Assembly: GCA_031256725.1 (NCBI GenBank)
Contig: JAIRQE010000014.1
Span: forward strand, 1 to 32,000
From: Propionibacteriaceae bacterium
GTDB taxonomy: Bacteria; Actinomycetota; Actinomycetes; Propionibacteriales; Propionibacteriaceae
DNA length: 32,000 bases
Direction: 5' to 3'
Shown: piece by piece, positions 3,229 to 27,917 of the stretch
How positions within the stretch are numbered: position 1 is the stretch's first letter
Layout: each line of letters starts with the position of its first letter
The notes under the pieces: generated by a model
What the model saw: the letters and a program-made list of their open reading frames with translations, nothing else
Told to the model about the DNA's origin: nothing
The model's database searches: none
Position numbers and translations under genes: made by a program

Positions 3229-4362
3229 ATGACATTAATAGAATCCCCTTTGGCTGAGGTACACACCAGTCTGGGCGCCAAGTTTTCACCTTTCGGTGGG
3301 TGGGCGATGCCCGTACAGTACGCTGGCATCCTCCAGGAACACAAGGCGGTACGCGAAGCAGTTGGTCTCTTCGATGTCTCCCACCTGGGTACCTTCCTCA
3401 TCGAAGGCGAGGCAGCTGCGGACTACCTCAACACACGGGTCTCCAATGATCTGAACAAGATCACTCCCGGACATGCACAGTACACCCTCCTTCTGGATGC
3501 CAGTGGGGGAGTCGTCGATGACATGATCGTGTACCTTTTCGCCCCAGACCATGTGATGGTGATCCCGAACGCTTCGAATGCAGATGAGGTATTGAGTCGA
3601 TTGATGGATTCAAGTCCCGATCATCTGCGCTGGACGAACCGGCACACAGCAGATGGGATTATCGCTATCCAGGGGCCGCGAAGCGCGGAAGTCATGGAGG
3701 CAGCCTTCGGACACAACTCCTCTGTTCGGGGGCCTGATCTGTCCCATGGAATGGGGTACATGAGTTTTGAACGGGCTGACCTGGTCGCTGAGTCCGTCTC
3801 CGTCTCGTTGACAGTGTGCCGCACGGGGTACACCGGAGAGCTTGGGTACGAACTCGTCGTACCAGCCGCCGACATGAAAACTGTGTGGACCTGGCTCATG
3901 GAACGAGGCGAGGCATATGGGATCCAACCCTGTGGTCTGGGAGCCCGTGACACCCTCCGTACGGAGATGGGATACCCCCTTCACGGGCAGGATCTTTCCC
4001 TAGAGATCTCTCCAGTTGAGGCACGAGTGGGGTGGGCTGTTGGCTGGAAGAAGGATTCCTTCGATGGTGATGAGGCGGTACGTACCCAACGCCGTCATGG
4101 GGTAAGTCGTACCCTGATGGGCATTCGTGCCTGTGGTCGGGGGATTCCGCGAGCGCACATGTCAGTCATCGACGAGAATGGGGAAAAGATCGGCGAGGTT
4201 ACCTCTGGCACCTTCTCCCCAACCCTCAATGTGGGAATCGGGCTCGCCTTCCTACCGCCTGAAACCCAGATCGGTGACAAGGTCACAGTTGAGGTACGCA
4301 GCCGCCACGAAGAGTTTGAAGTGGTCAAGCTCCCATTCGTACCCAGCCATGTGAGTAACTAA
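3229..4362 (+). CDS. gcvT: Aminomethyltransferase, glycine cleavage system T protein
   Basis: Contains GWAMPVQY, FDVSHLG, CRTGYTGELGYEL and SGTFSPTL motifs. I preferred ATG 3229 (MTLIESPL) because AGGAG lies 6 nt upstream, rather than ORF start 3211. Confidence 0.9.
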   Translation: MTLIESPLAEVHTSLGAKFSPFGGWAMPVQYAGILQEHKAVREAVGLFDVSHLGTFLIEGEAAADYLNTRVSNDLNKITPGHAQYTLLLDASGGVVDDMIVYLFAPDHVMVIPNASNADEVLSRLMDSSPDHLRWTNRHTADGIIAIQGPRSAEVMEAAFGHNSSVRGPDLSHGMGYMSFERADLVAESVSVSLTVCRTGYTGELGYELVVPAADMKTVWTWLMERGEAYGIQPCGLGARDTLRTEMGYPLHGQDLSLEISPVEARVGWAVGWKKDSFDGDEAVRTQRRHGVSRTLMGIRACGRGIPRAHMSVIDENGEKIGEVTSGTFSPTLNVGIGLAFLPPETQIGDKVTVEVRSRHEEFEVVKLPFVPSHVSN

Positions 4363-5099
4363 GACTGGGGAGTCCTGGGGGCGTATTCAACGGTAGCTCG
4401 GCTGAGACGAGTTGTAGATTGGCTGAATTCAACCTCGCATTTGTGGGCAAGGTCATGGGTAAGTACCCGTGTCACCCTGTAGCAGGACTTCATCTCCTCC
4501 AAGGAACCGTTGACCATGCCGACATGCAACTGGCATAGAACCTTGTGGCGTCGTGTGGAATCCCAGAATGGGCAGTGATGGAGTGTGAGACGCGGAGGGT
4601 CACCGCTTTCCTTCTCGGGAGCGAACCACAGAGCATCCAATTTGTCGATGAGTCGCTCAAGAATCTCGGCCTCGTCCACTGGGTCACCCGGATCGGTGCG
4701 AGGGGCCAGGAAGCGCCCCCATTCCGAACCGACCTGGTACATCCACTCGTCAGCTTCGCAATTGGACTGGGCAACAGTGATAGCCATGATCTCTGCGAGA
4801 AGGCGAAAACCTTGAGCCCTCTCGTGGGTCTGGTTTGGAAGGGTACCCGTGTAGGCAACCTTCGGACGTCCAGGTGTGGAACGGCTTTGTGCCTCTCGAG
4901 TGGCGAAGCCAGAATCAACAAGGGATTCAAGATGGAACCGGGCCGTATTCGACGGCAATCCGACTCTTTTAGCCACCTGTTCAACGGTGAGAGGTTCTTT
5001 GGTATCCCGCAGCAACCTAATGATATGTGTACGGCGCCCCCCATGTTCTGTACGACCTGTTGTTCCATCAAACACAGAATGGTCAACCCTTACAGCCAA
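4359..5099 (-). CDS. Winged-helix transcriptional regulator, ArsR/SufR-like, with a Cys/His-rich C-terminal domain
   Basis: The N-terminal HTH is IIRLLRDTKEPLTVEQVAKRVGLPSNTARFHLESLVDSGF...GRPKVAY. The C-terminal LTLHHCPFWDSTRRHKVLCQLHVGMV...KSCYRV...HKCEV resembles the HHCP...LC region of SufR-type Fe-S regulators. TTG start at 5099 has GGGGG 5 nt upstream. It is divergent from nrfH. Confidence 0.75.
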   Translation of the reverse strand: MAVRVDHSVFDGTTGRTEHGGRRTHIIRLLRDTKEPLTVEQVAKRVGLPSNTARFHLESLVDSGFATREAQSRSTPGRPKVAYTGTLPNQTHERAQGFRLLAEIMAITVAQSNCEADEWMYQVGSEWGRFLAPRTDPGDPVDEAEILERLIDKLDALWFAPEKESGDPPRLTLHHCPFWDSTRRHKVLCQLHVGMVNGSLEEMKSCYRVTRVLTHDLAHKCEVEFSQSTTRLSRATVEYAPRTPQS

Positions 5100-5325
5100 T
5101 GCAGCCCCCTACTTATTCAATAATTATGGTTAATACTATAAAGGTTGAATAACCGTTCAGCAAAACGGGATCTACTCGGCATCCTTGGCTCCCTCCACTA
5201 AAAATCCTCGTTTTGATATCTAATGTTTATTAGGGAATAAACAACGTGCCTTCATTGTTTTCCCTAGTCAGAGCGAATATGATCACTCTCTATGCGTGTG
5301 TATTCTCATAGTAATCATCTGGGTA

Positions 5326-5354
5326 TTGACCCTTGTTTTAACCCGTGATACTTT
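5326..5354 (+). promoter_or_regulatory. Candidate nrfH promoter (-35 TTGACC, extended -10 TGATACTTT)
   Basis: TTGACC at 5326-5331, a 17 nt spacer, then TACTTT at 5349-5354 preceded by TGA. It sits ~33 nt upstream of the nrfH ATG, with GAAAGGTGAG as the RBS. Sequence pattern only. Confidence 0.35.
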
Positions 5355-5386
5355 CGCATTACCTGTTACACACTGAAAGGTGAGCC

Positions 5387-5869
5387 ATGGCCTCAGCAAA
5401 GAAGCCCTCGCCACGGCTGCGTCGCGTACTCGGAATCGCAGCGGCCGCGTTAAGCGGAACCGCAATCGGGATAGCAATCTTTGGGATCGGATATTCCGGA
5501 CTCCCATCGTATTTCGGGTCTAACCCCGAAACCTGTGCGCAATGTCACGTGATGCAGGACCATTATGATGCATGGTCGCGAGGATCACACGCCAATGTCG
5601 CAACCTGTAACGACTGTCACCTGCCGCATGACAACATCATTCGGCAATATGGGGTGAAAGCCGAAGATGGTGTGCTACATGCACTTGCATTTACTACGGG
5701 GAGTTACCCCGAAAATATTGTCATCAGAGATAAGAGTAGGGCCATCGCTAATGAGCTATGTCTCAACTGCCATGACATGATGACTTTCCCGATGCGTTAT
5801 ACCGTGGGTGTCACAGGTGAAGACCCACAGTGTACACATTGCCATTCCACTATTGGACACGATATCTAG
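5387..5869 (+). CDS. nrfH: Tetrahaem membrane quinol dehydrogenase NrfH (NapC/NirT family)
   Basis: An N-terminal TM helix is followed by four CXXCH motifs (CAQCH, CNDCH, CLNCH, CTHCH) in 160 aa. It lies immediately upstream of nrfA. Confidence 0.9.
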   Translation: MASAKKPSPRLRRVLGIAAAALSGTAIGIAIFGIGYSGLPSYFGSNPETCAQCHVMQDHYDAWSRGSHANVATCNDCHLPHDNIIRQYGVKAEDGVLHALAFTTGSYPENIVIRDKSRAIANELCLNCHDMMTFPMRYTVGVTGEDPQCTHCHSTIGHDI

Positions 5870-5880
5870 GAGCCGGACTG

Positions 5881-7545
5881 ATGACAGACCAGAACGAAGC
5901 CAAGACTCGCAAAAGCGTTCCCATCTGGGCCCTCGCTGTAATTGCGATCGCGGCAGCCGCGATCGGGTTCCTTCTCGCTGCCCTCATTGCAAATATGGGG
6001 GAGAAGAAGGGCGAATCCGCTACGCAATATACACAGGTAGTCGAAATGAACGACACAAACCAGTACGATCCGAGCGCATGGGGACAAAACTTCCCATCTG
6101 AGTTTGAGGGATGGAAGGCTACTGCTATCTATAAGTCCTCAGATCATAAGCCGGATACCCTGGTAGCGAACGTTGACCTTGTGACAGCAGGGACACCGAT
6201 TAACCCAGACTTCGATACTCGTACCGAAGTTGCAGGATCAAAGATTGAGGAAGACACCCGAGTCAAGAGACTGTGGCAGGGATTCGCCTTCTTCATCGAC
6301 TATAGGCATGCCCGCGGTCACGCCTACATGTTGGAAGACCAGTTGACCACCAAGCGCGTTACTGAAAGAAATCAGCCGGGTGCTTGTATCCACTGTCATG
6401 CTTCCACTGTGCAGATGTGGGCGGCGGCAAGCACTGCCGGGCCGAATGCGAGCTTCAATGAGACTATGAATTCCGGGTTCGTAGCTTTGAACTCAATTCC
6501 GTACGACTGTGAGGCCACATCCGTGACCCCAGAGTGGCAAGCAGCTCAGAAAGAGGGCAAAGATTGCACGGATATTGAAGCAGACATGGAATCCATGATC
6601 AAGAAGCATTCCATGGATCAGGTGAATGGTGACCCCATCGGCTGTGTCGACTGCCATGATCCCGCAACCATGAAGCTGCGCATCTCCCGCCCAGGCCTGA
6701 TCAATTCATTCGCTGAATACAAGGCTGGCCAGGGAATCGCCAACTATGATGTGAACAAGGACGCCACCAATAATGAGCTTCGCGCTCTGGTGTGTGCACA
6801 GTGTCACATCGAGTACTACTTCGCAGGTGCCAACAAGGATGTCGTCTTCCCATGGGCCAAGGGCCTGGATATCGACGATACCCTTGAGTACTACAACGAG
6901 CCACGCTTCACCTTCAATGGTGTCGAGAATGTTGGATTCTCTGATTATGCGAACCCGCGTGCTCAGGTTGGCTCCATCAAGGCTCAGCATCCTGAGTACG
7001 AAGTATGGTCCTCGTCCATCCACGCCGCCAACGGTGTGACCTGTGCAGATTGCCACATGGCCTACACTCGCGACGGTTCACAGAAGATCACCAATCACGA
7101 TATCCGGAATCCTCTGTATGACGTGAACGCCACCTGTGGTCAGTGCCACACTGCCTCTGAGCAGGTTCTCAGGGATCGTGTGACAACGATCAACAACCGC
7201 TTCAAGATTACTCGCGACGCGGCTCTTGATTCCGCCATGGTACTCCTCGACATGCTCGAAGCAGTACAGGCTGAAGACTCGACGATCCAGGTCCCCGAGG
7301 CCACCATGGCCAAGGTCAAGGAACTGTATCGCAAGGGTGGATACTATGCAGACTATGCATACTCCGAGAACTCCTATGGTTTCCACAATCCTGACTATCT
7401 CCAGCGCGTTCTGGGGCAGTCACTCGACGCTACTCGCCAGGGCCAGTTGCTCCTGTCGCAGCTTGGTGTTGAGGTTCCGGATCTTGGCCCATCAGAATTC
7501 ACGGCTAAGAATACCGCTCATATCGAAGAGGTCGGTCTTAAGTGA
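5881..7545 (+). CDS. nrfA: Pentahaem cytochrome c nitrite reductase (ammonia-forming) NrfA, CXXCH variant at the first haem
   Basis: Five CXXCH motifs (CIHCH, CVDCH, CAQCH, CADCH, CGQCH) with NrfA-like spacing, and [13 protein letters not shown] before haem 1. ATG 5881 has AGGAG overlapping the nrfH stop. ORF-track start 5830 is rejected because it overlaps nrfH. Confidence 0.9.
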
Positions 7546-8105
7546 CCGAACTCTACGATGACGAACTACTCAAAGAAGTAGACGACGACATCGTAAGACC
7601 AAGGAATGCCCCATCCCGACCTGGTTCGGGGTGGGGCAAACCATCCATCGTGGTGGCGATCCTGGTTGGTGTCATCTTTGGGGCAATGATGGGTGCCTGG
7701 CTGAGGCCAGGCCAGTCTCCTGGGCCCTCACACCCCACGATGGGTGCGACTATTGATGGTGATTCGGTAGTCAGAATGTCGGAGCTTGAAGCACATGTTG
7801 AAGAAAATCCTGAGGACGTGGAGGCTCGTCTTGAGCTTGGGGAACTCTACTGGGGGATCGGGAACCTCGGGATGGCCAAAGAGCAAATCGATGAGGTGAT
7901 TAACCTTGATCCTGACTCGGCCGATGCTTGGTTCATGCTGGGGATGTACTACTGGTTTATTGAACCGCCAGACTGTGACAAGGTTGAAGAATCCTGGATA
8001 CGGTACATGAAACTCGATCCCGAAGGAGACCACGCTAAGGTTCTGGCTCACATGGATGAATGTAAGCTCATCCAAGAGTCCTCAGATAGCGAAACAGGCC
8101 GATAG
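7542..8105 (+). CDS. Membrane-anchored TPR protein, NrfG/CcmI-like
   Basis: The GTG start overlaps the nrfA stop (GTGA). It has one TM helix (IVVAILVGVIFGAMMGAWL). TPR-like repeats follow: NPEDVEARLELGELYWGIGNLGMAKEQIDEVINLDPDSADAWFMLGMYY. Confidence 0.72.
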   Translation: MTELYDDELLKEVDDDIVRPRNAPSRPGSGWGKPSIVVAILVGVIFGAMMGAWLRPGQSPGPSHPTMGATIDGDSVVRMSELEAHVEENPEDVEARLELGELYWGIGNLGMAKEQIDEVINLDPDSADAWFMLGMYYWFIEPPDCDKVEESWIRYMKLDPEGDHAKVLAHMDECKLIQESSDSETGR

Positions 8106-8172
8106 GGTAAGGCCGGATTCCTTTCTCGGAAACCGACACCTTATACACTGATATACACATGAGGTGATGATA

Positions 8173-8940
8173 ATGGTTGATCCGTCATTGACGGTCGCTA
8201 GCATCCTCGTCGTCTTCGGGGCGGGGCTGCTTGCTTTTGCGTCCCCCTGCTTCCTGCCCGTGGTACCTGTCTTCGTCGGATATCTTGCAGGCAAACCAAA
8301 CGTCGATCACATGGTGGATCCCCTTGGCTCATCCACGTGTCACGAGATACATCCCCCTGGCTCATCCAAATTGGATTGGTCTGGGGCAGCCCAAGCCCTT
8401 GTGTTCATCGTGGCCTTCTCAGCTGTCTTCATCAGTTTGTGGGGCCTTGTTGGTCTCATCGGATGGGTTGTTGGTGGTTTCAGGACCTGGCTCAGGATTG
8501 TTGGTGGGATTGTCCTTGTCATCATTGGTCTCCACGCATCTGGACTCATCTCTATCTCTGTTCTTGATCGTATACTTCAGCCTCGGTACTCGCCCGACCG
8601 TACTGAAGCCCCCAACCTGCGCCGATCCCTCTTGCTTGGGCTGGCCTTTGGGGCCGGGTGGACACCATGTATTGGTCCCATCCTTGGTGGAGTCTTGGGG
8701 CTCGCCACCACCTCCGACTCCCTGGTTCAAGGGATCATCCTCATGGTGGTCTTCTCACTGGGGTTAGGGCTTCCCTTCGTACTCGTGTGTGCAGGAGCCA
8801 CCTGGATTCTCAGCAAATTCAAGTGGTTTACTGCACACCGAAAGGGTGTCAATCTCGTTATTGGCATCTTTTTGATCATCGTGGGATTCCTGATGATCGC
8901 TGATCTTTTCTCACGCCTGGCCGCCTTGTTTTCAATCTAG
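8173..8940 (+). CDS. ccdA: Cytochrome c biogenesis thiol:disulfide electron transporter CcdA (DsbD-core family)
   Basis: A polytopic membrane protein with the two conserved Cys motifs FASPCFLP and GWTPCIGP. Alternative in-frame starts are GTG 8164 and ATG 8167. ATG 8173 has the best spacing from GAGG. Confidence 0.87.
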   Translation: MVDPSLTVASILVVFGAGLLAFASPCFLPVVPVFVGYLAGKPNVDHMVDPLGSSTCHEIHPPGSSKLDWSGAAQALVFIVAFSAVFISLWGLVGLIGWVVGGFRTWLRIVGGIVLVIIGLHASGLISISVLDRILQPRYSPDRTEAPNLRRSLLLGLAFGAGWTPCIGPILGGVLGLATTSDSLVQGIILMVVFSLGLGLPFVLVCAGATWILSKFKWFTAHRKGVNLVIGIFLIIVGFLMIADLFSRLAALFSI

Positions 8941-8949
8941 GAGAATGAA

Positions 8950-10416
8950 ATGACCGACCAAAAAACCACCGACCTCCCTGTCGAGGACGACCTTCCTGTA
9001 CAGGAGGCTGTCCCCCTTGTTGAGGGCGATGGACTTCCAGATGTATCCGTTGGCGAGTTTTTCCACCGCCTATACCAGGTGACCTACTCAAAGACTGTTG
9101 GGTTGATCATCATCCTCATTGTGACAGTCTACGTACTTCTTGGGGTGCTTTTCCCGCAGGCGAGTTCTTCAGTGTGGAATGACCCAGTCAGTAAGGCTGA
9201 TTTCTTGGAAGCCATGGAGACTAGATTTGGGGGATTCTCCTCCATCTTGAGTTTCCTGGGTCTCTTCCACGTCTTCACCTCCATAGGTTTCCTGGTCGCC
9301 ATAGGCGCACTCATGATCTCGATTCTTGGATGTACCACCCACCGCATTCCTCAGTTGTGGAAGAGATACAAACACCCACGGGTACAGGTCAGCGATCGTT
9401 TCTTTAGCGCAACTCGATATCAAGGATCAGTCGATGCTGATTCCAATGAGACCCAGGCAATCAGTGCGGCCAAGGAGAAACTTGCGGCTGCCCGGTACAG
9501 AGTCATCGAAGGGGAGGGCAACCTTCTTTATGCCGACAAGTACTCCTGGGGTGGTGTAGGTACGGTCATCGCCCACCTAGCCTTCATCTTGATTATCGTG
9601 GCCTACATCATCACGAGCCTCACAGGTTATGAGTCCATCATCACGGTACCTGCTGGTGGAGGTAAGCAGATTGCTGTTGGAGCTGGTACAAACTTCACCC
9701 TTGAGGCGACAAGCTTCGTTGCCACCTTTGATGACGAAAGCGGACGCCCACTTGACTATGTCTCAAACCTCATCTTGCGTGATGGGGGAGTACAGGTAGC
9801 TGAGAAGGAGATCAGAGTCAATGAGCCACTGTCCTATGGTGGGTACACCTTCCACCAAACCACCTATGGTTTAGCTGTCGAGGTCACCATCGTTTCCCGA
9901 GGTGAAGTAGTCTTCGAAGGAGGCGTCTCACAGGACTGGAGCGGTTCCTGGAATGGTGGGGAGATCGTCGGAGGTACAGTTGAACTTCCCGAACTTGGAC
10001 TTTACGTTGATGTGATTTCTCCCAGATCCGGGGTGAGCCACCCCACTATTCAACCAGGCCAAGTGCTTTTCTCTCTCATGGCTGAGGATAATACTCCAAT
10101 GTCTAAGGTCATTGTGAACCAGGGCGAATCCGACAAGATCGGTGATATGACCCTGAGCTTTGACCGTGAAGGAAATTACACAGGCATCATGGTACGTAAA
10201 GACCCAGGTGCATTGTGGATGCTTATCGCATCAATCCTGCTCGTGACAGGAATGATGATCACATTCATGTGCCGCCACAAGCGGCTTTGGGTGCGTGCTC
10301 AGGATGGGAAGCTGATGCTCGCCTCACCCGATAAGGAGGACTCCGGTTTCCGCCGCGAGTTCAACGAACTTCTCACCCAGGCTGAAACCTGGTCTACCCC
10401 CCAAAGGAGGAAATGA
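8950..10416 (+). CDS. resB: System II cytochrome c biogenesis protein ResB/Ccs1
   Basis: 488 aa. TM helices at the N-terminus and near the C-terminus flank a large extracytoplasmic domain. It sits between ccdA and ccsA. AGGAG RBS. Confidence 0.85.
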   Translation: MTDQKTTDLPVEDDLPVQEAVPLVEGDGLPDVSVGEFFHRLYQVTYSKTVGLIIILIVTVYVLLGVLFPQASSSVWNDPVSKADFLEAMETRFGGFSSILSFLGLFHVFTSIGFLVAIGALMISILGCTTHRIPQLWKRYKHPRVQVSDRFFSATRYQGSVDADSNETQAISAAKEKLAAARYRVIEGEGNLLYADKYSWGGVGTVIAHLAFILIIVAYIITSLTGYESIITVPAGGGKQIAVGAGTNFTLEATSFVATFDDESGRPLDYVSNLILRDGGVQVAEKEIRVNEPLSYGGYTFHQTTYGLAVEVTIVSRGEVVFEGGVSQDWSGSWNGGEIVGGTVELPELGLYVDVISPRSGVSHPTIQPGQVLFSLMAEDNTPMSKVIVNQGESDKIGDMTLSFDREGNYTGIMVRKDPGALWMLIASILLVTGMMITFMCRHKRLWVRAQDGKLMLASPDKEDSGFRREFNELLTQAETWSTPQRRK

Positions 10417-10796
10417 TGACACCGACCCAAGAATCACTCTTGCAGATCGCTGAGATTCTCTTAATCGCAGCAATCGTATGCATCATCTTGGCGATGATCA
10501 CCGCTCTCGTCACCCTATCCGCAGGACGCAAGTCGGCTAAAACAGTGGTACGAAAAGCCCGTCCATCCAAAGACGCAGACGAGATTGACGACATCTTCGA
10601 TGATGCCGATAACGAGGATGAGATCACGGAAGTCCACGAAGTTACTGAGGTGGTTGAAGAAGCCAAAGAGAGCACAGTCGAGACAGCTGAGGCTGTCGAA
10701 AAGACTGCGAAGAAGGTAACAACCACCAAGAAGGCTGTAACCACGAAGAAGCCGACGACTGTAAAAAAACCAGCGGCATCTAAGGCAAAGAAGTAG
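10413..10796 (+). CDS. Small single-pass membrane protein with an acidic then Lys/Thr-rich disordered tail (unknown function)
   Basis: ATGA overlap with the resB stop, and its own stop sits inside the ccsA RBS. One TM helix (ILLIAAIVCIILAMITALVTL) is followed by RK residues, then DADEIDDIFDDADNEDEITEVHEVTEVVEE, then KKVTTTKKAVTTKKPTTVKKPAASKAKK. Confidence 0.65.
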   Translation: MMTPTQESLLQIAEILLIAAIVCIILAMITALVTLSAGRKSAKTVVRKARPSKDADEIDDIFDDADNEDEITEVHEVTEVVEEAKESTVETAEAVEKTAKKVTTTKKAVTTKKPTTVKKPAASKAKK

Positions 10797-10804
10797 GAGT
10801 AGAT

Positions 10805-11545
10805 ATGACTGACACCAAAGACACCGTGAAATCCAAGTCAACGCTCAACGTTGGATCCTTTGCAACCGGTTTCACGCTCGTTGCATTTATCCTGGTCACC
10901 GCCTATCTCGGCATCCGTATGTCCATCACAGGCCATGGCCCATTCTCCAACCAACATGAGTTTGCCGTCAGCTTCGTGTGGGGAATCCTGGTTGCGTACC
11001 TTGTTGCCCTGTGGCGCTTCAAGATCCGTATGCTTGCCCTCGTTGTTCTTCCTGTTGCTGCCTGCCTGCTTTTGTACGCCTTCCAAATGGGTACAGAAGT
11101 GGAGCCGCTTGTTCCTGCACTCCAGAACAACCTCTTGCTCACGGTACACGTCGGCTTCGCAATCCTTGCCTATGGTGCCGCCTGCGTCTCCTTCGGCGCG
11201 GCGGTGCTGTACCTGCTTTATCCGAAACTGAAGCTGAAGACCCCGCGTGAAACCTTTGACGAGATGGGGTACAAAGCCGCTGTGGTGACCTTCCCCTTGT
11301 TGACCATCATGATCCTCTTGGGTGCCCTGTGGGCCAAAACTGCATGGGGGCGCTACTGGGGCTTTGATCCTAAGGAAACTGCTGCCTTGGTGACATGGCT
11401 TCTCTATGGTGCCTTCCTGCACGCCCGCGTTGCTCGTGGGTGGAGGGGTACGAAGTCAGCCTGGTTGCTGATCATCGGTTTTGCCGCTGTATTGTTCGCC
11501 TACTTTGGTAACCACTTCTTTGGTGGCCTACACTCCTACGGGTGA
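10805..11545 (+). CDS. ccsA: System II cytochrome c biogenesis haem-handling protein CcsA/ResC
   Basis: A polytopic membrane protein with the Trp-rich WWD-type motif WAKTAWGRYWGFDPKETAALVTWL and conserved His residues in flanking helices (LTVHVGF, GAFLHARV). Confidence 0.87.
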   Translation: MTDTKDTVKSKSTLNVGSFATGFTLVAFILVTAYLGIRMSITGHGPFSNQHEFAVSFVWGILVAYLVALWRFKIRMLALVVLPVAACLLLYAFQMGTEVEPLVPALQNNLLLTVHVGFAILAYGAACVSFGAAVLYLLYPKLKLKTPRETFDEMGYKAAVVTFPLLTIMILLGALWAKTAWGRYWGFDPKETAALVTWLLYGAFLHARVARGWRGTKSAWLLIIGFAAVLFAYFGNHFFGGLHSYG

Positions 11546-12102
11546 TGAAATCTAACCTTAGGACCGCGCTGGTCCTCGTTGTTACAACGATCCTGATCAT
11601 CGGTGGGGTCATCCTGGTGAAGCAGCCATGGAATAATTCCGCCGGTGTTTCAGATATTGATGTTGTCATTGATCCCGACCAACCTGCGCCAGCAGTAGGG
11701 AGTCTTGCACCCGATTTTGCTGGGGTGACCATTGATGATGAGGTCATCCGTTTGAGTGACCTTGCTGGGAAGCCAGCCTGGCTCATCTTTGGTGCCACCT
11801 GGTGTACAAACTGTCGGGCTGAGGCTCCAGATGTGGAAGCGGCTGCCCAGGAGTATGACGGGCAGGTGCGCGTTCTATCAATCTATGTTGGTGAGAGTGT
11901 TGACACTGTGTCAGGCTATGCCTCCAGGTTGAAAATGACCCACACGCAGATCCCTGATCCGGTCAAAGAGATTGCCTCCACTTATGGTGTCATGGGGCTG
12001 CCCACTCATGTGTTCATTGATTCTCACGGAGTGATTCAAAAGATCACCATGGGTTCGATCAGCAAGAAGGCTGCATCCGAGGTACTGGATTCATTGTTGT
12101 AG
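11542..12102 (+). CDS. resA: Membrane-anchored thioredoxin-like thiol-disulfide oxidoreductase (ResA/TlpA family)
   Basis: An N-terminal TM helix precedes a thioredoxin fold with the active site GATWCTNCRAEAP. The start overlaps the ccsA stop (GTGATG). Confidence 0.85.
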   Translation: MMKSNLRTALVLVVTTILIIGGVILVKQPWNNSAGVSDIDVVIDPDQPAPAVGSLAPDFAGVTIDDEVIRLSDLAGKPAWLIFGATWCTNCRAEAPDVEAAAQEYDGQVRVLSIYVGESVDTVSGYASRLKMTHTQIPDPVKEIASTYGVMGLPTHVFIDSHGVIQKITMGSISKKAASEVLDSLL

Positions 12103-12185
12103 GGGCCATCCGCAGTTTTCCGCCTCGCAGAACTTCTCTGTACGGGCGGTAGAATGACTTGGGCCACTATAGAAAGAAGGATGCC

Positions 12186-12773
12186 GTGGGACTGTTTAAG
12201 CCGTACGATGCGGAGCCGACCAAAGAGGTACAAACTCCTCCCAAGCCCAATGCAACCGCAAAGAAGAGTATTCCTACTCCAACGCGCAAGCAGGCTGAGC
12301 AGGCTCGTCGTCAACGGCTCCAGCCTGTACTAACCCGCAAGCAAGCCAATGCTATCGAGCGGGAGGCTAGGTACAAGTCTCGTGATGAGCAGTTAGCGAA
12401 AACCCATGCACTTCCCTACAACGCCTTGATTCGCGACTGGGTCGATCATCGTTGGAATCTGGCTGAGTTCGCTCTGCCAGGGATGCTCCTGGTTTTTGTC
12501 GGAACCATGGTGGGTGCCTACTTCCTTCCCTCCCTCATGATGGCTACCAGCTATATCATCTGGGGTATCTTCCTTCTGCTGATCATTGATACCTTCCTCA
12601 TGTGGTTTGGGTGTCGTACCAATCTCAAGCTCTATTTCCCAGGGGAACCCCTCAAAGGCAAGTTCAGCTATGCCATGTCGCGGTCCATGCTCATGCGCCG
12701 CTCACGTATCCCCGCACCCAGGGTCAAGCGTGGATCCCGGTTCCAATGGCCGTACACTGAGGGCAACTCATGA
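12186..12773 (+). CDS. DUF3043 family membrane protein
   Basis: Basic N-terminus (GLFKPY...KKSIPTPTRKQAEQARRQR), then IRDWVDHRWNLAEFALPGMLLVF and a second TM helix. This layout is typical of actinobacterial DUF3043. GTG 12186 with GAAGGA upstream is preferred to TTG 12159. Confidence 0.78.
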   Translation: MGLFKPYDAEPTKEVQTPPKPNATAKKSIPTPTRKQAEQARRQRLQPVLTRKQANAIEREARYKSRDEQLAKTHALPYNALIRDWVDHRWNLAEFALPGMLLVFVGTMVGAYFLPSLMMATSYIIWGIFLLLIIDTFLMWFGCRTNLKLYFPGEPLKGKFSYAMSRSMLMRRSRIPAPRVKRGSRFQWPYTEGNS

Positions 12774-12970
12774 GGTACACCTGGCAGTTGCCAACACAGA
12801 TCGATGACCCCTATCTCCAAGATGAACTCATAAAGGGATGGGATACCCAAGATCTGGCCGAGATTTGGCTAAGAGCAGCCTACGAGGATCTCCGTGAAGA
12901 GGGCGTGACCGAAGTGACCCTCACCTGCGACGAGACCCCCATATACACCATGTCCCTAGACGCTGAGTAG
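12770..12970 (+). CDS. Small acidic hypothetical protein (66 aa)
   Basis: ATGA overlap with the DUF3043 stop suggests translational coupling. I recognise no motif. Confidence 0.5.
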   Translation: MRYTWQLPTQIDDPYLQDELIKGWDTQDLAEIWLRAAYEDLREEGVTEVTLTCDETPIYTMSLDAE

Positions 12971-13009
12971 ATCCTGGTCATCCCACGCGAAGCTCCAGAA
13001 AAGGTACAG

Positions 13010-13656: not shown

Positions 13657-13998
13657 ATGACTGAAACTGCAACACAGGGTCTGATGCTGACCCAAGCCGC
13701 TATAACGAAGATTTCTCAACTGCTAGCCAATGAGGAACAGGAACTGTTCCTGAGGGTGGCGGTACAACCGGGTGGCTGTGCTGGGCTGCGTTATGAACTG
13801 TACTTTGATGATCAGCATTTTGATGGTGACATGGAGATGTCCTTTGGTGAGGATGTCATGGTTGTCGTGGATGAGAAGTCGGCTCCCTATCTCAGTGGGG
13901 CGACCATCGATTTTGCAGACACTATCTCCAAGCAGGGTTTCGTGATCGATAATCCTAATGCCCAGGGTTCTTGTGCATGCGGTGACTCCTTTAACTGA
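13657..13998 (+). CDS. erpA: Iron-sulfur cluster insertion protein, HesB/IscA/ErpA family
   Basis: 113 aa. Contains LRVAVQPGGCAGLRY and the C-terminal CACGDSF, the three conserved A-type carrier cysteines. Confidence 0.9.
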   Translation: MTETATQGLMLTQAAITKISQLLANEEQELFLRVAVQPGGCAGLRYELYFDDQHFDGDMEMSFGEDVMVVVDEKSAPYLSGATIDFADTISKQGFVIDNPNAQGSCACGDSFN

Positions 13999-13999
13999 C

Positions 14000-14803
14000 G
14001 TGTACACCCATCGGCCTCAGGCTTTTTTCGACGCATATCTTTTCGATCTGGATGGGACAATCTATCTGGGAGACGAGGTACTTCCTGGGGTCCGTGAAAC
14101 CATGACCGCATTGAGGGAAGCTGGCAAGGTTGTACGATTCCTGTCGAATAACCCGACGAAATCCCCTGAACAGTATGCCGAGAAGTTGACAGCGATGGGG
14201 ATTGAAGCCCAGGTCTCGGAGATCACGAATACGATCGTGACAACACTGTGGTGGCTTCGTACCCATCACCCTGGGGCGACGGTGTACCCCATTGCGGAGG
14301 TTCCCCTCATGACGGCACTCAGCGAAGCTGGGTTCACGATCAGTGAGGACCCCAGTCGTATTGACGTCGTGATTTCTTCCTATGATCGTGGGTTTGGGTA
14401 CTCGAAACTCCAGATTGCCTTTGATGCCCTGTGGTTTTACAAGCGGGCCATTCTCATTGAGACGAATCCTGATCGGTACTGCCCCTTTCCGGGGGGACGC
14501 GGTGAACCGGATGCTGCCGCGATTACTGCGGCTATCGAGGCATGTACCCAGGTGAAATGTGTTGCGTCTATGGGGAAGCCTTCGGAACTCATGGTGAGGG
14601 CGGGTCTTGCCGGGCTGGATATTCCTCTTGATCGATGTGTGATGGTGGGGGATCGACTTGCGACAGATATCCGCATGGCACTCAATTTGGGGATGCCTGC
14701 TGCTGTGGTTTTCACGGGGGAAACCAAGCCTCAGGATGTGACTGTGGATTATGCTAATGCCTATAGATTGGATACCATCGATCAGTTGATTCCCCTGTCC
14801 TAG
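14000..14803 (+). CDS. HAD-IIA (NagD-like) sugar phosphatase
   Basis: Contains YLFDLDGTIYLG, FLSNNPT, MGKP and MVGDRLATDI. The start is uncertain: GTG 14000 lies just after the erpA stop, while ATG 13958 would overlap erpA by 41 nt. Confidence 0.85.
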   Translation: MYTHRPQAFFDAYLFDLDGTIYLGDEVLPGVRETMTALREAGKVVRFLSNNPTKSPEQYAEKLTAMGIEAQVSEITNTIVTTLWWLRTHHPGATVYPIAEVPLMTALSEAGFTISEDPSRIDVVISSYDRGFGYSKLQIAFDALWFYKRAILIETNPDRYCPFPGGRGEPDAAAITAAIEACTQVKCVASMGKPSELMVRAGLAGLDIPLDRCVMVGDRLATDIRMALNLGMPAAVVFTGETKPQDVTVDYANAYRLDTIDQLIPLS

Positions 14804-14930
14804 GGGATTCAATTCAGATGGGGTCCTTGCAGGTCAGCATTTTCTTAGAGTTTCTTTCAGGAGGCGCTGGTAACATGGTACTGATCACCATCTGTGGGAA
14901 TGATGGATTGACAAGAAGGCGAGTCTAATA

Positions 14931-15815
14931 ATGGCATCAGATGATTTGACACCGAATGTGAATGACCCCGAGGAAGGGGACACATCTAGTCGATCCTCTT
15001 CACGTTCCTCCCGTTCATCGCGACGTACTACTGGGGAGGGATCCTCCAAACCTTCTTGGACTCCACGCAGTGACACCGACATTGAGAGAACTCTCTCAGG
15101 TGATGACTCCGCGCCTACGGACACTTTTAGGATGATTGGCCCTGATGGTGATGAGGACGTGGAGGAGGAGCCCAAGAAGAAAAAGAAGGGTGGGTTACTC
15201 ATCCTCCTTCTCTCTTTGGCGCTCATCATTGGTGGTGCAACCATCGGCGTACTTTCTTTCATGCCTAAGCCGAATCAAGCCGATGCTCCACGCGATATGG
15301 ATGGCAATATCGTGGTCCCTGATGACCCGAGGGCTCTGTCTTCAGAGTTCCTTGAGGCTGCTGATATGAGGGTTGATGATGGTGGCAAGGGGTTCAAGAT
15401 TCCTGCAGTACAGTTGAACGTACCCCTCGGTTCTGTTAACGCTGTTGATGGCGAGATGAATCCCCCGAATTATTCTTCCTCATTCGTCATCCGCAACATG
15501 GGGGTTCCCCTCACCGATGCCCAAAATGGAACGGTCTACATGGTTGCCCACGCCACAGCCAGGGGCAGGTCTCCAGGGAACTATATCCAGAAGGATTCTG
15601 AGGTACTCCTGAAACCTGGTGACTTCATTGAGGCCAACAATCGCGTGTACTCCTATGTGAGGCATGTGATTGTGAATAAGAATGTCATTGCAGACGTACC
15701 AGACCTCTGGGATGCTTCTATCCCTGGTCGCCTGGTTTTCATCACCTGTCAGGTGCGTCCGACAGGCGGCATAGCGGTCAATAACATTGTTATCATCGCT
15801 GAGTTGGTTTCCTAG
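14931..15815 (+). CDS. Sortase-fold transpeptidase candidate (class F-like) with a long disordered cytoplasmic N-terminus
   Basis: Ser/Arg and acidic low complexity, KKKKK, one TM helix, then an extracellular domain. That domain carries TVYMVAHATARG (His), LKPGDFIE...YSYV and GRLVFITCQVR (TC Cys) in the usual sortase order. Confidence 0.62.
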   Translation: MASDDLTPNVNDPEEGDTSSRSSSRSSRSSRRTTGEGSSKPSWTPRSDTDIERTLSGDDSAPTDTFRMIGPDGDEDVEEEPKKKKKGGLLILLLSLALIIGGATIGVLSFMPKPNQADAPRDMDGNIVVPDDPRALSSEFLEAADMRVDDGGKGFKIPAVQLNVPLGSVNAVDGEMNPPNYSSSFVIRNMGVPLTDAQNGTVYMVAHATARGRSPGNYIQKDSEVLLKPGDFIEANNRVYSYVRHVIVNKNVIADVPDLWDASIPGRLVFITCQVRPTGGIAVNNIVIIAELVS

Positions 15816-15829
15816 TATCAAGCATTAAC

Positions 15830-15859
15830 AGCGCCCTGGCCATATCCGGTCAGGGCGCT
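15830..15859 (+). terminator. Stem-loop terminator candidate
   Basis: AGCGCCCTG - 12 nt loop - CAGGGCGCT forms a 9 bp stem followed by TGTCTTT. It lies 15 nt after the stop at 15815. Confidence 0.6.
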
Positions 15860-16074
15860 TGTCTTTACCGAAGAGCGAATACCTCAGGGTTTCCCCTCTG
15901 AGCGAGATGAGAATATGGGAGTTCGAGGGGTTGTTGCGGCAAGGTTTAGGGCTGATCTGACGAGGTCTCTCGCATTGATCACGAACTACTAGGCGTTACG
16001 GAGATGCTAGAAACGCAAGTAACGTTGGATGACTATGAGAAGCGGATTGCTCCGGTTGCCGACCTTCCCCCTCG

Positions 16075-17916
16075 TTATGAGAGGGTACGACGCGCAGCAC
16101 CTTTGTCTGCTGACTGGGCTAGGGCGGCATAGACCTTCAACGCATTAGAAACAGGGCGTACACGAGTGGCTGGGTTCCACCCTTTCGCATCCTGTTCTGC
16201 TCGACGTTCGGCTAGTTCCTCGTCGCTGACCTCAACTGTGATGGATCTTTCGGGGATCGAAATGGAGATGATGTCCCCATCGTGAATCAGGCCAATGGCG
16301 CCACCATCTGCAGCCTCCGGGGAAATGTGACCGATGGAGAGTCCCGAGGATCCGCCAGAGAAACGACCGTCAGTGATGAGCGCGCATTGCGGGCCAAGGC
16401 CCATACCTTTGAGGTACGCCGTGGGGTAGAGCATCTCTTGCATTCCCGGGCCGCCCTTGGGGCCCTCGTACCGGACCACAACCACATCCCCAGGTTTGAT
16501 ATGCCCACCGAGGATGGCATCGACCGCATCCTCTTGGGATTCCATGACCCGTGCGGGTCCAGAGAAACTCCATTGGGCTTCTGGTACCCCTGCTGTCTTG
16601 ACGACTGCCCCGTCAACAGCGATATTCCCGGTGAGGATAGCGAGGCCGCCATCCTTGCTGTAGGCGTGGGCCATGTCACGGATACATCCCTCGGCTGAAT
16701 CAGTGTCAAGGGTCTCCCATCTGGCTGAGGTTGAGAAGGGTTCAGTGGTACGAACGCGCCCCGGGGCGGCATGGAAGAGTTCAATGGCGACCGGATCGGG
16801 ATTGGTGGAACGGATATCCCAGGTGGTCAGCCAGGATTCAAGGTTGGGAGAGTGGATGGAACTCACATCAGCATTCAGGAGGTTTCCACGCTGGAGTTCA
16901 CCCAGGATCGCTGGGATACCACCTGCGCGGTGAACATCCTCCATGTAGTAGACCCTGGAATTGGGTGCCACCTTCACAAGACAGGGGGTTTGACGTGAAA
17001 GTTCATCAATGTCGGCTTGAGTGAAATCGACTCGGGCCTCCTGGGCGGCAGCCAGAAGATGGAGAATCGTATTCGTTGAGCCACCCATCGCGATGTCCAT
17101 TGTCATCGCGTTGAGGAAGGCCTCCTTCGTGGCGATCGACAGGGGGAGTACCGAAGAGTCGTCCTCGTCGTACCATTTCTTGCACAGATCCACGATGAGG
17201 GCTCCGGCTTGCTCGAAGAGGGCGCGCCTTGATGTGGATGTGGCGAGGGTGGAACCATTGCCGGGCAATCCAAGACCGAGAGCTTCGACGAGGCAGTTCA
17301 TGGAGTTCGCAGTGAACATTCCTGAGCAAGACCCACATGTGGGACAGGCCGCCTGCTCAATTTGGGCAACCTTGTCATCGTCGATGGTGGAATCCACAGA
17401 GGTGATCATGGCGTCGATGAGGTCTAAAGCGGTCTCGGTTGTCTCGCCAGCAAAAGAGGTACGTCCTGACTCCATGGGCCCACCGGAGACAAAGACGCTG
17501 GGGATGTTGAGTCGAAGGGCTGCCAGGAGCATCCCGGGGGTGATCTTGTCGCAGTTCGAGATGCAGACGAGGGCATCGGCTTGATGGGCATTGACCATGT
17601 ACTCCACCGAGTCGGCGATGATTTCGCGGCTGGGAAGGGAGTACAGCATCCCTGAGTGACCCATGGCTATCCCGTCATCAATCGCGATGGTATTAAACTC
17701 TCGACCGACCCCGCCAGCCTTGGCGATGGCATCGCATACGAGGGTGCCCATATCTTTGAGATGGACATGGCCTGGTACGAATTGGGTGAAGGAGTTCGCC
17801 ACCGCAATGATCGGCTTCCCGAAATCTGACTCCGTCATTCCTGTGGCCCGCCATAGTGCGCGGGCGCCAGCCATGATACGACCTTCAGTCGTGGTACGAG
17901 AGCGAAGCTTGGGCAT
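16075..17916 (-). CDS. ilvD: Dihydroxy-acid dehydratase
   Basis: [13 protein letters not shown]..., [17 protein letters not shown] and TDGRFSGGS signatures. ATG 17916 is preceded by AAGGAGG. The ORF-track start 17940 is 8 codons upstream. Confidence 0.95.
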
Positions 17917-18064
17917 GTAATCCTCCTTGGATGAAGTCATGTGTATTCAAGAATACGCGATCCGAGGCGAATACCATGTCATCCTGTGTACAGTCGCAGG
18001 ATGCAGATTCTGAAGACAATATGATAGTAGGTGATTGTGGCAAGGGTGCCACCTGGATAGGAAT

Positions 18065-27804: not shown

Positions 27805-27917
27805 ACATAAATTGGGACTTGACGTATCGCAGAAACATGGAAAACTGTTAGGGAAGGGATTTCACCCTCCACTAAGGATCGTCGGGCACGTACCGCCCGT
27901 GGAAAGGTTATATCGCT

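What the first reader, a model, noticed from the sequence alone, without database searches (positions are those of the whole stretch)
5387..12102. Nrf nitrite-ammonification genes and a complete System II cytochrome c maturation set form one tightly coupled eight-gene operon
nrfH, nrfA, a TPR gene, ccdA, resB, a small unknown gene, ccsA and a resA-like gene lie on one strand.

The junctions are overlapping or minimal:
- the nrfH stop lies inside the nrfA RBS
- GTGA at nrfA/TPR
- ATGA at resB/small gene
- GTGATG at ccsA/resA
- gaps of 9 to 67 nt elsewhere

I see no hairpin terminator before 12102. In established systems, nrf operons carry only a dedicated lyase (NrfEFG in E. coli, NrfI in Wolinella), while the general maturation genes sit elsewhere. 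Here the thiol-reduction arm (CcdA, ResA-like) and the haem-delivery arm (ResB, CcsA) all appear subordinate to the nrf promoter.

This suggests a self-contained, possibly horizontally portable, DNRA cassette. The Nrf haem proteins may be the main or only c-type cytochromes in this organism. The flanking genes (gcvT, DUF3043, erpA) are ordinary actinobacterial core genes.
Basis: partly seen in the sequence, partly recalled or inferred. Interest (0 to 1): 0.7.

Follow-up and report, generated by a model that had tools for sequence, protein, structure and literature searches.

The report
Nitrite reductase operon with built-in cytochrome maturation
A termite-gut actinobacterium keeps the genes for its nitrite-to-ammonium enzyme (NrfHA) in one tight cluster with all the genes needed to attach haem to it, but this layout is common across related bacteria and so is ordinary rather than new.

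Summary
In detail: eight same-strand ORFs (5387-12102) with overlapping or minimal junctions encode NrfH, NrfA, a membrane-anchored TPR protein, CcdA, ResB, CcsA and a ResA-like thioredoxin.

Corrections:
- nrfA starts at ATG 5881.
- The "small unknown gene" is the detached N-terminal transmembrane segment of CcsA. The split is shared by four related lineages.
- A divergent regulator (4359-5099) belongs to the module. It shows the ArnR/SufR (COG2345) [4Fe-4S] hallmarks.
- NrfA has five CXXCH motifs and no CXXCK, as do its 120 nearest homologues, so no special haem lyase is expected.

The same order, nrfH-nrfA-TPR-(ccdA)-resB-ccsA-resA, recurs in at least 14 actinobacterial loci (Propionibacteriaceae, Tessaracoccus, Propioniciclava, Schaalia, Cellulomonas, Micrococcales, Bifidobacteriaceae). 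About 60 Firmicutes MAGs carry nrfA-resB-ccsA. A Bacteroides nrfHA-ccsBA operon and a Bacillus nrfHA-ccm linkage are published.

I found no sign of recent transfer: composition is normal, and there are no mobile-element genes, tRNAs or plasmid relatives.

Whether NrfHA are the only c-type cytochromes could not be tested. The canonical ctaCDF-qcrCAB neighbours of erpA are absent here, which fits that idea.

Verdict: a new member of a known kind, of modest interest.

The parts
4359..5099 (-). Divergently transcribed ArnR/SufR-like (COG2345-type) regulator, 246 aa. It has a wHTH, a GRP AT-hook (TPGRPKV) and three conserved Cys (C176, C189, C221), with His at C2+3 (CQLH).
   Evidence: Pfam HTH_20/HTH_IclR. 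Alignment of five homologues. Hallmarks compared with PMC12343034 and bioRxiv 10.64898/2025.12.26.696629. Adjacent to nrfH in the window, L002-L004, L085, L090 and L091-L094.
5100..5386 (.). AT-rich divergent control region. It has a conserved -35-like TTGACC (5326-5331) and -10-like TACTTT (5349-5354) 17 nt apart, the conserved block GGTTAATACTATA next to the regulator start, and an 18-nt imperfect inverted repeat at 5113-5152.
   Evidence: Alignment with L003 and L004, inverted repeat, sequence. Promoter and operator roles are inferred.
5387..5869 (+). nrfH: membrane-anchored tetrahaem menaquinol dehydrogenase with 4 CXXCH motifs; the first is CAQCHVM (CXXCHxM).
   Evidence: TIGR03153 at 141.2 bits (cutoff 134.2) and PF03264. 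Motifs counted.
5881..7545 (+). nrfA: pentahaem ammonia-forming nitrite reductase of the all-CXXCH type (CIHCH, CVDCH, CAQCH, CADCH, CGQCH), with an N-terminal membrane anchor or signal.
   Evidence: PF02335, E = 1.4e-101. 100% identical to P0001. CIHCH aligns to the CWNCK of D. vulgaris NrfA, and the catalytic Arg/Tyr/His contexts are conserved. All 120 closest homologues have CXXCH at haem 1.
7542..8105 (+). Membrane-anchored TPR protein: acidic cytoplasmic N-terminus with DDELLKExDDDIV, one TM helix, and about 3 helix pairs of TPR outside the membrane. Proposed apocytochrome chaperone.
   Evidence: Generic TPR Pfam hits. Present between nrfA and ccdA/resB in every actinobacterial locus examined. 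Model pLDDT is 70-89 over residues 79-184. The function is inferred.
8173..8940 (+). ccdA: transmembrane thiol-reductant transporter with conserved Cys in ASPCFLP and WTPCIGP (alternative GTG start at 8164).
   Evidence: PF02683 and PF13386. Gene call of 255 aa. Sequence.
8950..10416 (+). resB (ccsB): System II haem-handling subunit.
   Evidence: PF05140 at 211 bits.
10413..10796 (+).
   Evidence: 47% identity over 58 aa to the N-terminus of the fused 398-aa CcsA P0124 (E = 3e-15). Fused homologues are 295-398 aa. The same +2-frame split occurs in L002, L003 and L004.
10805..11545 (+). ccsA (resC) body: haem-exporting cytochrome c synthase subunit with the W-rich WWD region (WGRYWGFDPKE).
   Evidence: TIGR03144 at 198.9 bits (cutoff 187.6) and PF01578. 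Own RBS inside TAGGAG.
11542..12102 (+). resA-like membrane-anchored thioredoxin with a WCTNC active site.
   Evidence: AhpC-TSA, Redoxin and Thioredoxin hits. Best NCBIfam hit is ResA NF002854 at 81 bits, below the 170 cutoff.

Best explanation
Region 4359-12102 is a nine-gene respiratory module of a termite-gut Propionibacteriaceae bacterium. It combines a regulator gene with an eight-ORF operon.

What the operon makes (function follows from well-characterised families; not shown here):
- NrfH oxidises menaquinol and passes electrons to NrfA. NrfA reduces nitrite to ammonium on the outer face of the membrane.
- The two proteins need nine covalently attached haems. The operon supplies the complete System II machinery for that.
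- CcdA carries reducing power across the membrane to the ResA-like thioredoxin. ResA keeps the CXXCH cysteines reduced.
- ResB and a two-piece CcsA export haem and form the thioether bonds.
- The membrane-anchored TPR protein probably holds apo-NrfA or apo-NrfH for the synthase (inferred from position and topology only).
- All NrfA haem sites are CXXCH, so an ordinary synthase suffices.

Expression (inferred):
- Transcription most likely starts at one promoter about 35 nt upstream of nrfH.
- The divergent ArnR-like [4Fe-4S] regulator likely controls it. By analogy with ArnR, it would repress until nitric oxide from nitrate or nitrite turnover at low oxygen destroys its cluster.

The module is an old, widely distributed actinobacterial arrangement. 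It is not a recent acquisition.
For: - Gene identities. Junctions. No intergenic terminators.
- The conserved promoter-like element occurs only upstream of nrfH. The TPR/ccdA gap is absent in L003 and L082.
- The same order is found in 14 or more actinobacterial loci across at least six families or orders.
- 26 of the 120 best CcsA hits lie on contigs of the same length as contigs carrying one of the 120 best NrfA hits.
- NrfA is all-CXXCH.
- The CcsA split is conserved in four lineages and has its own RBS.
- Regulator hallmarks: GRP motif, Cys 176/189/221, and His at C2+3 as in ArnR.
- Regulator homologues at 53-59% identity sit beside NarK-family transporters and moeA/modA. This is the ArnR-type setting.
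- GC and GC3 match the flanks. No tRNA or repeats flank the module.
- The module sits in the gcvT-DUF3043 interval also in L090, where NrfA is 48% identical.
Against: - Co-transcription is not shown. A 58-67 nt gap before ccdA could hold an internal promoter.
- No terminator was found after resA, so the unit may extend into DUF3043. A TAGAAT -10-like motif in front of DUF3043 suggests otherwise.
- The TPR protein has no specific similarity to NrfG or CcmI.
- Sequence homology of the regulator to ArnR itself was not measured, and its model was unusable (pLDDT 44).
- Most regulator homologues are not next to nrf genes (29 loci).
- NrfA may serve detoxification rather than respiration.
Confidence: 0.75

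Rival explanations
1. The ccs genes are simply the organism's general housekeeping System II that happens to lie next to nrfHA. They would serve other c-type cytochromes encoded elsewhere, and may be expressed from their own promoter in the TPR/ccdA gap.
For: - An all-CXXCH NrfA needs no specialised synthase.
- A Cellulomonas MAG (L008) also carries ccdA in the cluster. From my own knowledge, that genus is aerobic and should have QcrC.
- A 58-67 nt gap precedes ccdA.
Against: - In every locus examined the ccs genes travel with nrfHA.
- The gap is not conserved.
- The window holds no other CXXCH gene.
- ctaCDF-qcrCAB flank erpA in L089, but are absent next to erpA in the window, L087, L088 and L090.
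- Tessaracoccus and Propioniciclava clusters lack ccdA. That implies the reductant arm, and perhaps a second set, lies elsewhere in those genomes.
Confidence: 0.3
2. The cluster is a recently acquired, horizontally mobile DNRA island.
For: - The module sits at unrelated chromosomal sites in different genera. In Schaalia it lies between rne and rplU, and it occupies two different sites in two Tessaracoccus genomes. Propioniciclava and the Bifidobacteriaceae MAG differ again.
- The Bifidobacteriaceae MAG's proteins are closer to the window's than those of Propioniciclava. NrfA is 46% versus 41% identical, CcsA 72% versus 56%, and the regulator is 61% identical.
Against: - GC is 0.50-0.55 and GC3 0.52-0.66, within the range of the flanking genes.
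- No integrase or transposase, no tRNA and no flanking repeats.
- The best plasmid NrfA relatives are below 32% identity.
- The same gcvT-DUF3043 interval is occupied in L003, L004 and L090 despite NrfA divergence down to 48%.
Confidence: 0.1
3. The module mainly detoxifies nitrite, NO or hydroxylamine and does not conserve energy.
For: - NrfHA contributes to nitrosative-stress defence in other bacteria (cited in PMC3475470).
- ArnR also controls the NO-detoxifying hmp gene in Corynebacterium.
Against: NrfH is a quinol dehydrogenase, so the enzyme is wired to the respiratory quinone pool. The two roles are not exclusive, and nothing here separates them.
Confidence: 0.25
4. The split ccsA marks a decaying, non-functional synthase gene or an assembly error.
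For: A stop codon and a frame change separate the first TM helix from the body of CcsA.
Against: - The same split, with the same +2 frame offset, is present in four lineages whose NrfA are only 66-69% identical.
- The second ORF has its own GGAG RBS and ATG.
- An independent Logan assembly gives the identical sequence.
- All other genes are intact.
Confidence: 0.05

Closest known systems
Bacteroides thetaiotaomicron BT1414-BT1418 operon (nrfH, nrfA, ccsB, ccsA) (PMC10434189)
   Same: nrfHA lies directly with System II synthase genes in one co-regulated operon, in an organism with few c-type cytochromes.
   Different: It has no ccdA, no resA-like gene and no TPR gene in the operon. It is predicted to be under a Crp-like regulator. 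It comes from a diderm host. B. thetaiotaomicron also has further resB/ccsA pairs elsewhere.
Wolinella succinogenes nrfHAIJ (NrfI, a dedicated CcsBA-type haem lyase)
   Same: An NrfHA-type enzyme with a System II synthase encoded in the nrf cluster.
   Different: NrfI is a fused CcsBA specialised for the CXXCK active-site motif (PMC12285233). Here resB and ccsA are separate (ccsA is even split) and NrfA has no CXXCK.
Escherichia coli nrfABCDEFG (NrfEFG lyase with the TPR protein NrfG)
   Same: The nrf operon carries its own maturation genes, including a TPR protein thought to present apo-NrfA to the lyase.
   Different: It uses System I (Ccm-type) rather than System II, NrfBCD instead of NrfH, and a CXXCK haem 1. 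The window's TPR protein shows no specific sequence or fold similarity to NrfG.
Bacillus azotoformans nrfHA linked to ccmEFHABC (PMC3475470)
   Same: A Gram-positive nrfHA sits next to a near-complete cytochrome c biogenesis system.
   Different: That system is System I, and its NrfA has CXXCK.
Bacillus subtilis ResA-ResB-ResC plus CcdA (prototype Gram-positive System II)
   Same: The same four functions, all present here.
   Different: In B. subtilis they are housekeeping genes not linked to any cytochrome gene (PMC12285233). The gene order differs, and there is no TPR partner.
Campylobacter jejuni / Anaeromyxobacter dehalogenans CXXCH-type NrfA
   Same: Five CXXCH motifs and NrfH as the redox partner.
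   Different: They belong to a different phylum, and no ccs genes are reported in their nrf clusters in the review read here.
Corynebacterium glutamicum ArnR (COG2345, [4Fe-4S], NO-responsive repressor of narKGHJI and hmp)
   Same: wHTH plus GRP AT-hook. Three C-terminal Cys at almost the same positions (179/193/223 in ArnR; 176/189-190/221-222 here). His at the fourth-ligand position. Actinobacterial. Linked to N-oxide respiration genes.
   Different: The target here would be nrf-ccs rather than nar/hmp. Pairwise homology to ArnR, cluster binding and DNA binding were not tested.

Membership tests
[quoted passage not shown] | Score above the curated equivalog cutoff | tested here: met
   141.2 bits against a cutoff of 134.2
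[quoted passage not shown] | Four CXXCH motifs, the first followed by Met (CXXCHxM), and an N-terminal membrane helix | tested here: met
   CAQCHVM, CNDCH, CLNCH and CTHCH. Hydrophobic stretch GIAAAALSGTAIGIAIFGIG.
NrfA (cytochrome c552, PF02335) | Pfam gathering score and five haem c motifs | tested here: met
   341 bits against a cutoff of 24.1. Five C..CH motifs.
NrfA (cytochrome c552, PF02335) | CXXCK (Lys-ligated) active-site haem motif of canonical NrfA | tested here: not met
   CIHCH aligns to CWNCK of D. vulgaris NrfA. None of the 120 closest homologues has CXXCK. NCBIfam equivalog cutoffs are not reached: 245.6 bits against 595, and 193 against 692.5. It belongs to the known all-CXXCH subclass.
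NrfA (cytochrome c552, PF02335) | Catalytic Arg, Tyr and His environment | tested here: met
   [17 protein letters not shown] and AQHPEYE align to the D. vulgaris enzyme.
System II cytochrome c synthase (CcsA/ResC plus CcsB/ResB) | CcsA equivalog score with a W-rich WWD region, and the ResB family | tested here: met
   TIGR03144 at 198.9 bits against 187.6. PF05140 at 211 bits. WGRYWGFDPKE.
System II thiol-reduction arm (CcdA plus ResA/CcsX) | CcdA with two membrane-embedded Cys, and a membrane-anchored thioredoxin with CXXC | tested here: met
   PF02683 at 40.6 bits against 27.1, with ASPCFLP and WTPCIGP. The ResA-like protein has WCTNC and Redoxin/AhpC-TSA hits. The ResA model NF002854 scores 81 bits, below its 170 cutoff.
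NrfI-type dedicated CXXCK haem lyase | Fused CcsBA protein with a CXXCK-bearing NrfA substrate | tested here: not met
   resB and ccsA are separate genes, and NrfA lacks CXXCK.
NrfG/CcmI TPR apocytochrome chaperones | Specific sequence or fold similarity beyond generic TPR | tested here: inconclusive
   NrfG is absent from the listed PDB hits by sequence (all 74 hits for the single protein; best 60 for the profile) and from the best 50 fold matches shown. PF23914 TPR_CcmH_CycH hits 10 of 12 family members (best 2e-6), but generic TPR models score as well or better.
NrfG/CcmI TPR apocytochrome chaperones | Binds the C-terminal helix of apo-NrfA and is required for haem attachment | not testable with these tools
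   Needs genetics or binding assays.
ArnR/SufR-like COG2345 Fe-S regulators | N-terminal wHTH plus a central GRP AT-hook | tested here: met
   HTH_20, HTH_IclR and HTH_5 hits. TPGRPKV is invariant in five homologues. The feature is defined.
ArnR/SufR-like COG2345 Fe-S regulators | Three conserved C-terminal Cys (spacing about 13-14 and 28-32) and a metal-binding residue at C2+3 (Glu in SufR, His in ArnR) | tested here: met
   C176/C189/C221 in the window, with spacings 13-14 and 32, and CQLH giving His at C2+3. Reference positions: ArnR 179/193/223, Mtb SufR 179/192/220 plus E195.
ArnR/SufR-like COG2345 Fe-S regulators | Direct sequence homology to ArnR or SufR; [4Fe-4S] binding; NO-sensitive DNA binding | not tested
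NCBIfam gave no SufR hit at E <= 0.01. PDB by sequence matched only the HTH. The AF2 model was unusable (pLDDT 43.8).

The most novel reading that the evidence does not exclude
The actinobacterial nrf cluster may be a System II counterpart of E. coli NrfEFG. Its resB/ccsA/resA would be NrfHA-dedicated paralogues. The conserved membrane-anchored TPR protein would be a previously unrecognised System II accessory factor, an apocytochrome chaperone analogous to NrfG/CcmI, needed even though NrfA is all-CXXCH. The whole unit would be switched on by an ArnR-like [4Fe-4S] nitric-oxide sensor. That would couple cytochrome c maturation itself to an N-oxide signal.
Probability: 0.3. Interest if true: 0.55.

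Novelty: new member of a known kind. Interest (0 to 1): 0.3.

Why it matters
- It shows that Gram-positive Actinomycetota of gut and oral habitats carry nitrite ammonification as a gene-complete package: enzyme, haem-attachment machinery and, in one branch, an NO-type regulator. These habitats include termite hindgut Propionibacteriaceae and Bifidobacteriaceae, and genera such as Schaalia, Actinomyces, Tessaracoccus and Propioniciclava.
- This helps when annotating DNRA potential in metagenomes. A lone nrfA call in such lineages is backed by its own maturation genes.
- It also flags two testable side issues. One is a TPR partner of System II. The other is an ArnR-family branch dedicated to nrf.
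- The co-localisation is already documented in other phyla, so it does not change current understanding of Nrf or of cytochrome c biogenesis.

Tried and rejected
1. I tried to read the rest of the 59-kb MAG contig through its end genes. cysS was not on record. The galK look-up returned only the 13-kb Logan contig. Other cytochromes or a second ccs locus in this genome could therefore not be checked.
The CcsA protein search lists only the 120 closest hits, all at 65% identity or more, and many of those are nrf-linked.
The single-sequence TPR model was adequate only for the TPR domain, and the fold search gave only generic TPR hits with E >= 0.02. The regulator model was unusable.
4. I considered the small ORF as a new accessory factor. 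I rejected this because it is the CcsA N-terminus.
5. I considered a pseudogenised ccsA. I rejected this because the split is conserved and translationally equipped.
6. I considered an NrfI-like CXXCK lyase role for the cluster's synthase. I rejected this because NrfA has no CXXCK.
7. I looked for a plasmid-borne relative and found none above 32% identity.
8. Kern et al. 2010 (PMC3414424) is not held.
9. A simple 'empty site' gcvT|DUF3043 was not found. L087 and L088 lack nrf but also have different right-hand neighbours.
10. Rfam found no leader or riboswitch in the region.

Full report
**1. What is there**

The window is from a Propionibacteriaceae MAG. Its NrfA is 100% identical to P0001, named by NCBI 'MAG... 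Propionibacteriaceae bacterium'. The same sequence was assembled independently from SRR14710887. The closest relatives carry the names Nt197P3 and Emb289P3. These are hindgut (P3) MAGs of the humus-feeding higher termites Neocapritermes taracua and Embiratermes neotenicus (PMC7024585).

- NrfH: TIGR03153, 141 bits against a cutoff of 134.
- NrfA: PF02335, E = 1e-101.
- A TPR protein.
- CcdA: DsbD_TM.
- ResB: 211 bits.
- CcsA: TIGR03144, 199 bits against a cutoff of 188.
- A ResA-like thioredoxin-fold protein.

The junctions are as described. Three stop codons sit inside TAGGAG ribosome-binding sites (nrfH/nrfA, ccdA/resB, small ORF/ccsA). Three junctions overlap (GTGA, ATGA, GTGATG). The only sizeable gap is 58-67 nt before ccdA. 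No terminator-like site lies in any gap. The real nrfA start is ATG 5881, not the GTG 5830 of the mechanical ORF list.

**2. Corrections and additions to the anatomy**

(a) The 'small unknown gene' (10413-10796) is the first transmembrane helix plus the acidic, Lys-rich linker of CcsA.
- Close homologues are single proteins of 295-398 aa. Their N-termini match it: 47% identity over 58 residues to P0124, E = 3e-15.
- The break is a stop inside an RBS followed by an ATG in the +2 frame.
- The same offset is seen in L002, L003 and L004, whose NrfA are only 66-69% identical to the window's.
- It is therefore a maintained split gene. It is neither an error nor a new factor.

(b) NrfA has five CXXCH motifs.
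- Its first motif, CIHCH, aligns to the CWNCK active-site motif of the D. vulgaris enzyme. The catalytic Arg/Tyr/His contexts are conserved.
- All 120 nearest homologues have CXXCH, not CXXCK, at the first haem motif.
- This is the known CXXCH subclass reported for C. jejuni and A. dehalogenans (PMC12285233). A CXXCK-specific lyase of the NrfI or NrfEFG type is therefore not expected.

(c) The TPR protein has an acidic cytoplasmic N-terminus, one TM helix and about three TPR helix pairs outside the membrane.
- It occupies the same slot, between nrfA and ccdA/resB, in every actinobacterial locus examined.
- By sequence and fold it is a generic TPR, with no specific link to NrfG or CcmI.

(d) A divergent 246-aa regulator (4359-5099) belongs to the module.
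- It accompanies nrfH in L002-L004, L090, the Bifidobacteriaceae MAG L085 (61% identity) and the metagenome contigs L091-L094.
- It shows the hallmarks listed for the COG2345 SufR/ArnR family: wHTH, an invariant GRP AT-hook, three conserved Cys (176/189/221), and His three residues after the second Cys. That last position is Glu in SufR and His in ArnR.
- ArnR's three Cys are at 179/193/223.
- Homologues at 53-59% identity lie beside NarK-family nitrate/nitrite transporters (L103, L123, L143) and moeA/modA (L105). This is the genomic setting of ArnR itself.
- Only the branch at 64% identity or above is nrf-linked. 29 homologue loci with both flanks readable have no nrf genes.

**3. How common is it?**

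Very common.
- tblastn of the window proteins on 79 NrfA-bearing reference loci, plus gene tables of cultured genomes, gives the order nrfH-nrfA-TPR-ccdA-resB-ccsA-resA in termite Propionibacteriaceae, Micrococcales, Cellulomonas, Schaalia sp. 19OD2882 and a Bifidobacteriaceae MAG.
- The same order without ccdA occurs in Propioniciclava coleopterorum, two Tessaracoccus genomes and further MAGs.
- About 60 Firmicutes MAGs carry nrfA-resB-ccsA on one strand.
- 26 of the 120 best CcsA hits lie on contigs of the same length as contigs carrying one of the 120 best NrfA hits.
- In the literature, the B. thetaiotaomicron operon BT1414-18 (nrfH, nrfA, ccsB, ccsA) is described and shown to be co-regulated (PMC10434189). 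B. azotoformans nrfHA is linked to ccmEFHABC (PMC3475470).
- I found no paper describing the actinobacterial version.

Its own refutation criterion of a common gene order is met.

**4. Portable cassette?**

Over long timescales the module does occupy unrelated sites:
- between rne and rplU, next to cydAB, in Schaalia;
- two different sites in two Tessaracoccus genomes;
- beside a two-component system in Propioniciclava.

The Bifidobacteriaceae copy is more similar to the window's than the Propioniciclava copy is.

Nothing indicates a recent event here:
- GC (0.50-0.55) and GC3 (0.52-0.66) of the cluster genes lie within the range of the flanking genes.
- There are no integrase or transposase genes, tRNAs or flanking repeats.
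- The best plasmid-borne NrfA relatives are below 32% identity.
- The module lies in the same gcvT-DUF3043 interval in L003, L004 and L090. The flanks are rearranged in L090, and NrfA identity there has fallen to 48%.

**5. Only c-type cytochromes?**

This was not testable, because the rest of the MAG could not be read.

Circumstantial support:
- NrfH and NrfA are the only real genes with haem c motifs in the 32 kb.
- A more distant actinobacterial contig (L089) has DUF3043-erpA followed by ctaC-ctaD-ctaF and qcrCAB. The window, L087, L088 and L090 have HAD, ilvD and similar genes next to erpA, and no cta/qcr.
- From my own knowledge, Bifidobacteriaceae are not known to make cytochrome c, yet one MAG carries the complete set including ccdA.

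Conversely, clusters lacking ccdA in Tessaracoccus and Propioniciclava imply another ccs-related locus in those genomes. That would make their nrf-linked synthase a second, dedicated set. This step is inference.

**6. Mechanism**

Shown:
- gene content;
- motifs;
- conserved order;
- a conserved TTGACC-17/18-TAnnnT element about 35 nt upstream of nrfH in three loci.

Inferred from family knowledge:
- NrfH takes electrons from menaquinol and passes them to NrfA. NrfA reduces nitrite to ammonium outside the membrane.
- CcdA passes reductant to ResA, which keeps the apoprotein CXXCH thiols reduced.
- ResB and the two-piece CcsA export haem and attach it.

Inferred from position only:
- The TPR protein chaperones apo-NrfA or apo-NrfH.

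Inferred by analogy with ArnR:
- The regulator represses the divergent promoter region until NO disrupts its [4Fe-4S] cluster.

The 3' end is open. No significant hairpin follows resA, and a TAGAAT motif precedes DUF3043.

**7. Verdict**

The locus is a well-preserved member of a widespread actinobacterial nrfHA-System II cluster type. Its general logic, a cytochrome encoded next to its own maturation genes, is already documented in Bacteroidota and Bacillus.

Three details are new but modest:
- the split CcsA;
- the conserved TPR partner of System II;
- the ArnR-family regulator branch attached to nrf.

Interest 0.3; novelty: new member of a known kind.

Noticed in passing
L022:7582-13250 (Oscillospiraceae MAG, goat jejunum): nrfA-resB-ccsA follows directly, on the same strand, after Rnf subunits rnfE, rnfA and rnfB. 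No nrfH was detectable. This could be an Rnf-linked NrfA. About 60 Firmicutes MAG loci carry the minimal nrfA-resB-ccsA cassette without nrfH, ccdA or resA detectable by tblastn.
   Followed up: partly
L096, L098, L099, L103, L105, L123, L143 (termite-gut metagenome contigs): The ArnR-like regulator family is expanded in termite-gut metagenomes: 312 stretches encode a relative. Some copies occur as tandem pairs (L096, L098, L099). Non-nrf members sit beside NarK-family transporters and moeA/modA genes.
   Followed up: partly
window 13657-18000, compared with L089:1-8938: In L089, erpA is followed by ctaC-ctaD-ctaF and qcrCAB. In the window and in L087, L088 and L090 this block is absent next to erpA. 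This suggests loss or relocation of the bcc-aa3 branch in this Propionibacteriaceae clade.
   Followed up: partly
window 5881-7545 (NrfA residues about 187-250): The window's NrfA subclade is about 554 aa, against about 485-500 aa for most actinobacterial homologues. An unaligned stretch of about 60 residues lies between haem motifs 1 and 2; it contains two extra Cys and is acidic.
   Followed up: no
window 8307-8368: An imperfect 29-nt direct repeat (79% identity, 33-nt spacing) lies inside ccdA. It encodes a duplicated 'DPLGSS / HPPGSS' loop segment between the first conserved Cys helix and the rest of the protein.
   Followed up: no
window 27857-27914: An msiK RNA element (RF01747, 42 bits against a gathering score of 33) lies immediately upstream of the MalK/MsiK-type ABC ATPase gene at 27918-29009.
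   Followed up: no
window 12102-12186: No significant terminator follows resA (z = -0.83). A TAGAAT -10-like motif lies in front of the DUF3043 gene, so the 3' boundary of the nrf-ccs transcript is undefined.
   Followed up: partly
window 4300-13000: The consensus scan found 13 terminator-like sites against 6.8 +/- 2.4 in shuffles. All lie inside coding sequence on either strand, and none lies in an intergenic gap.
   Followed up: no
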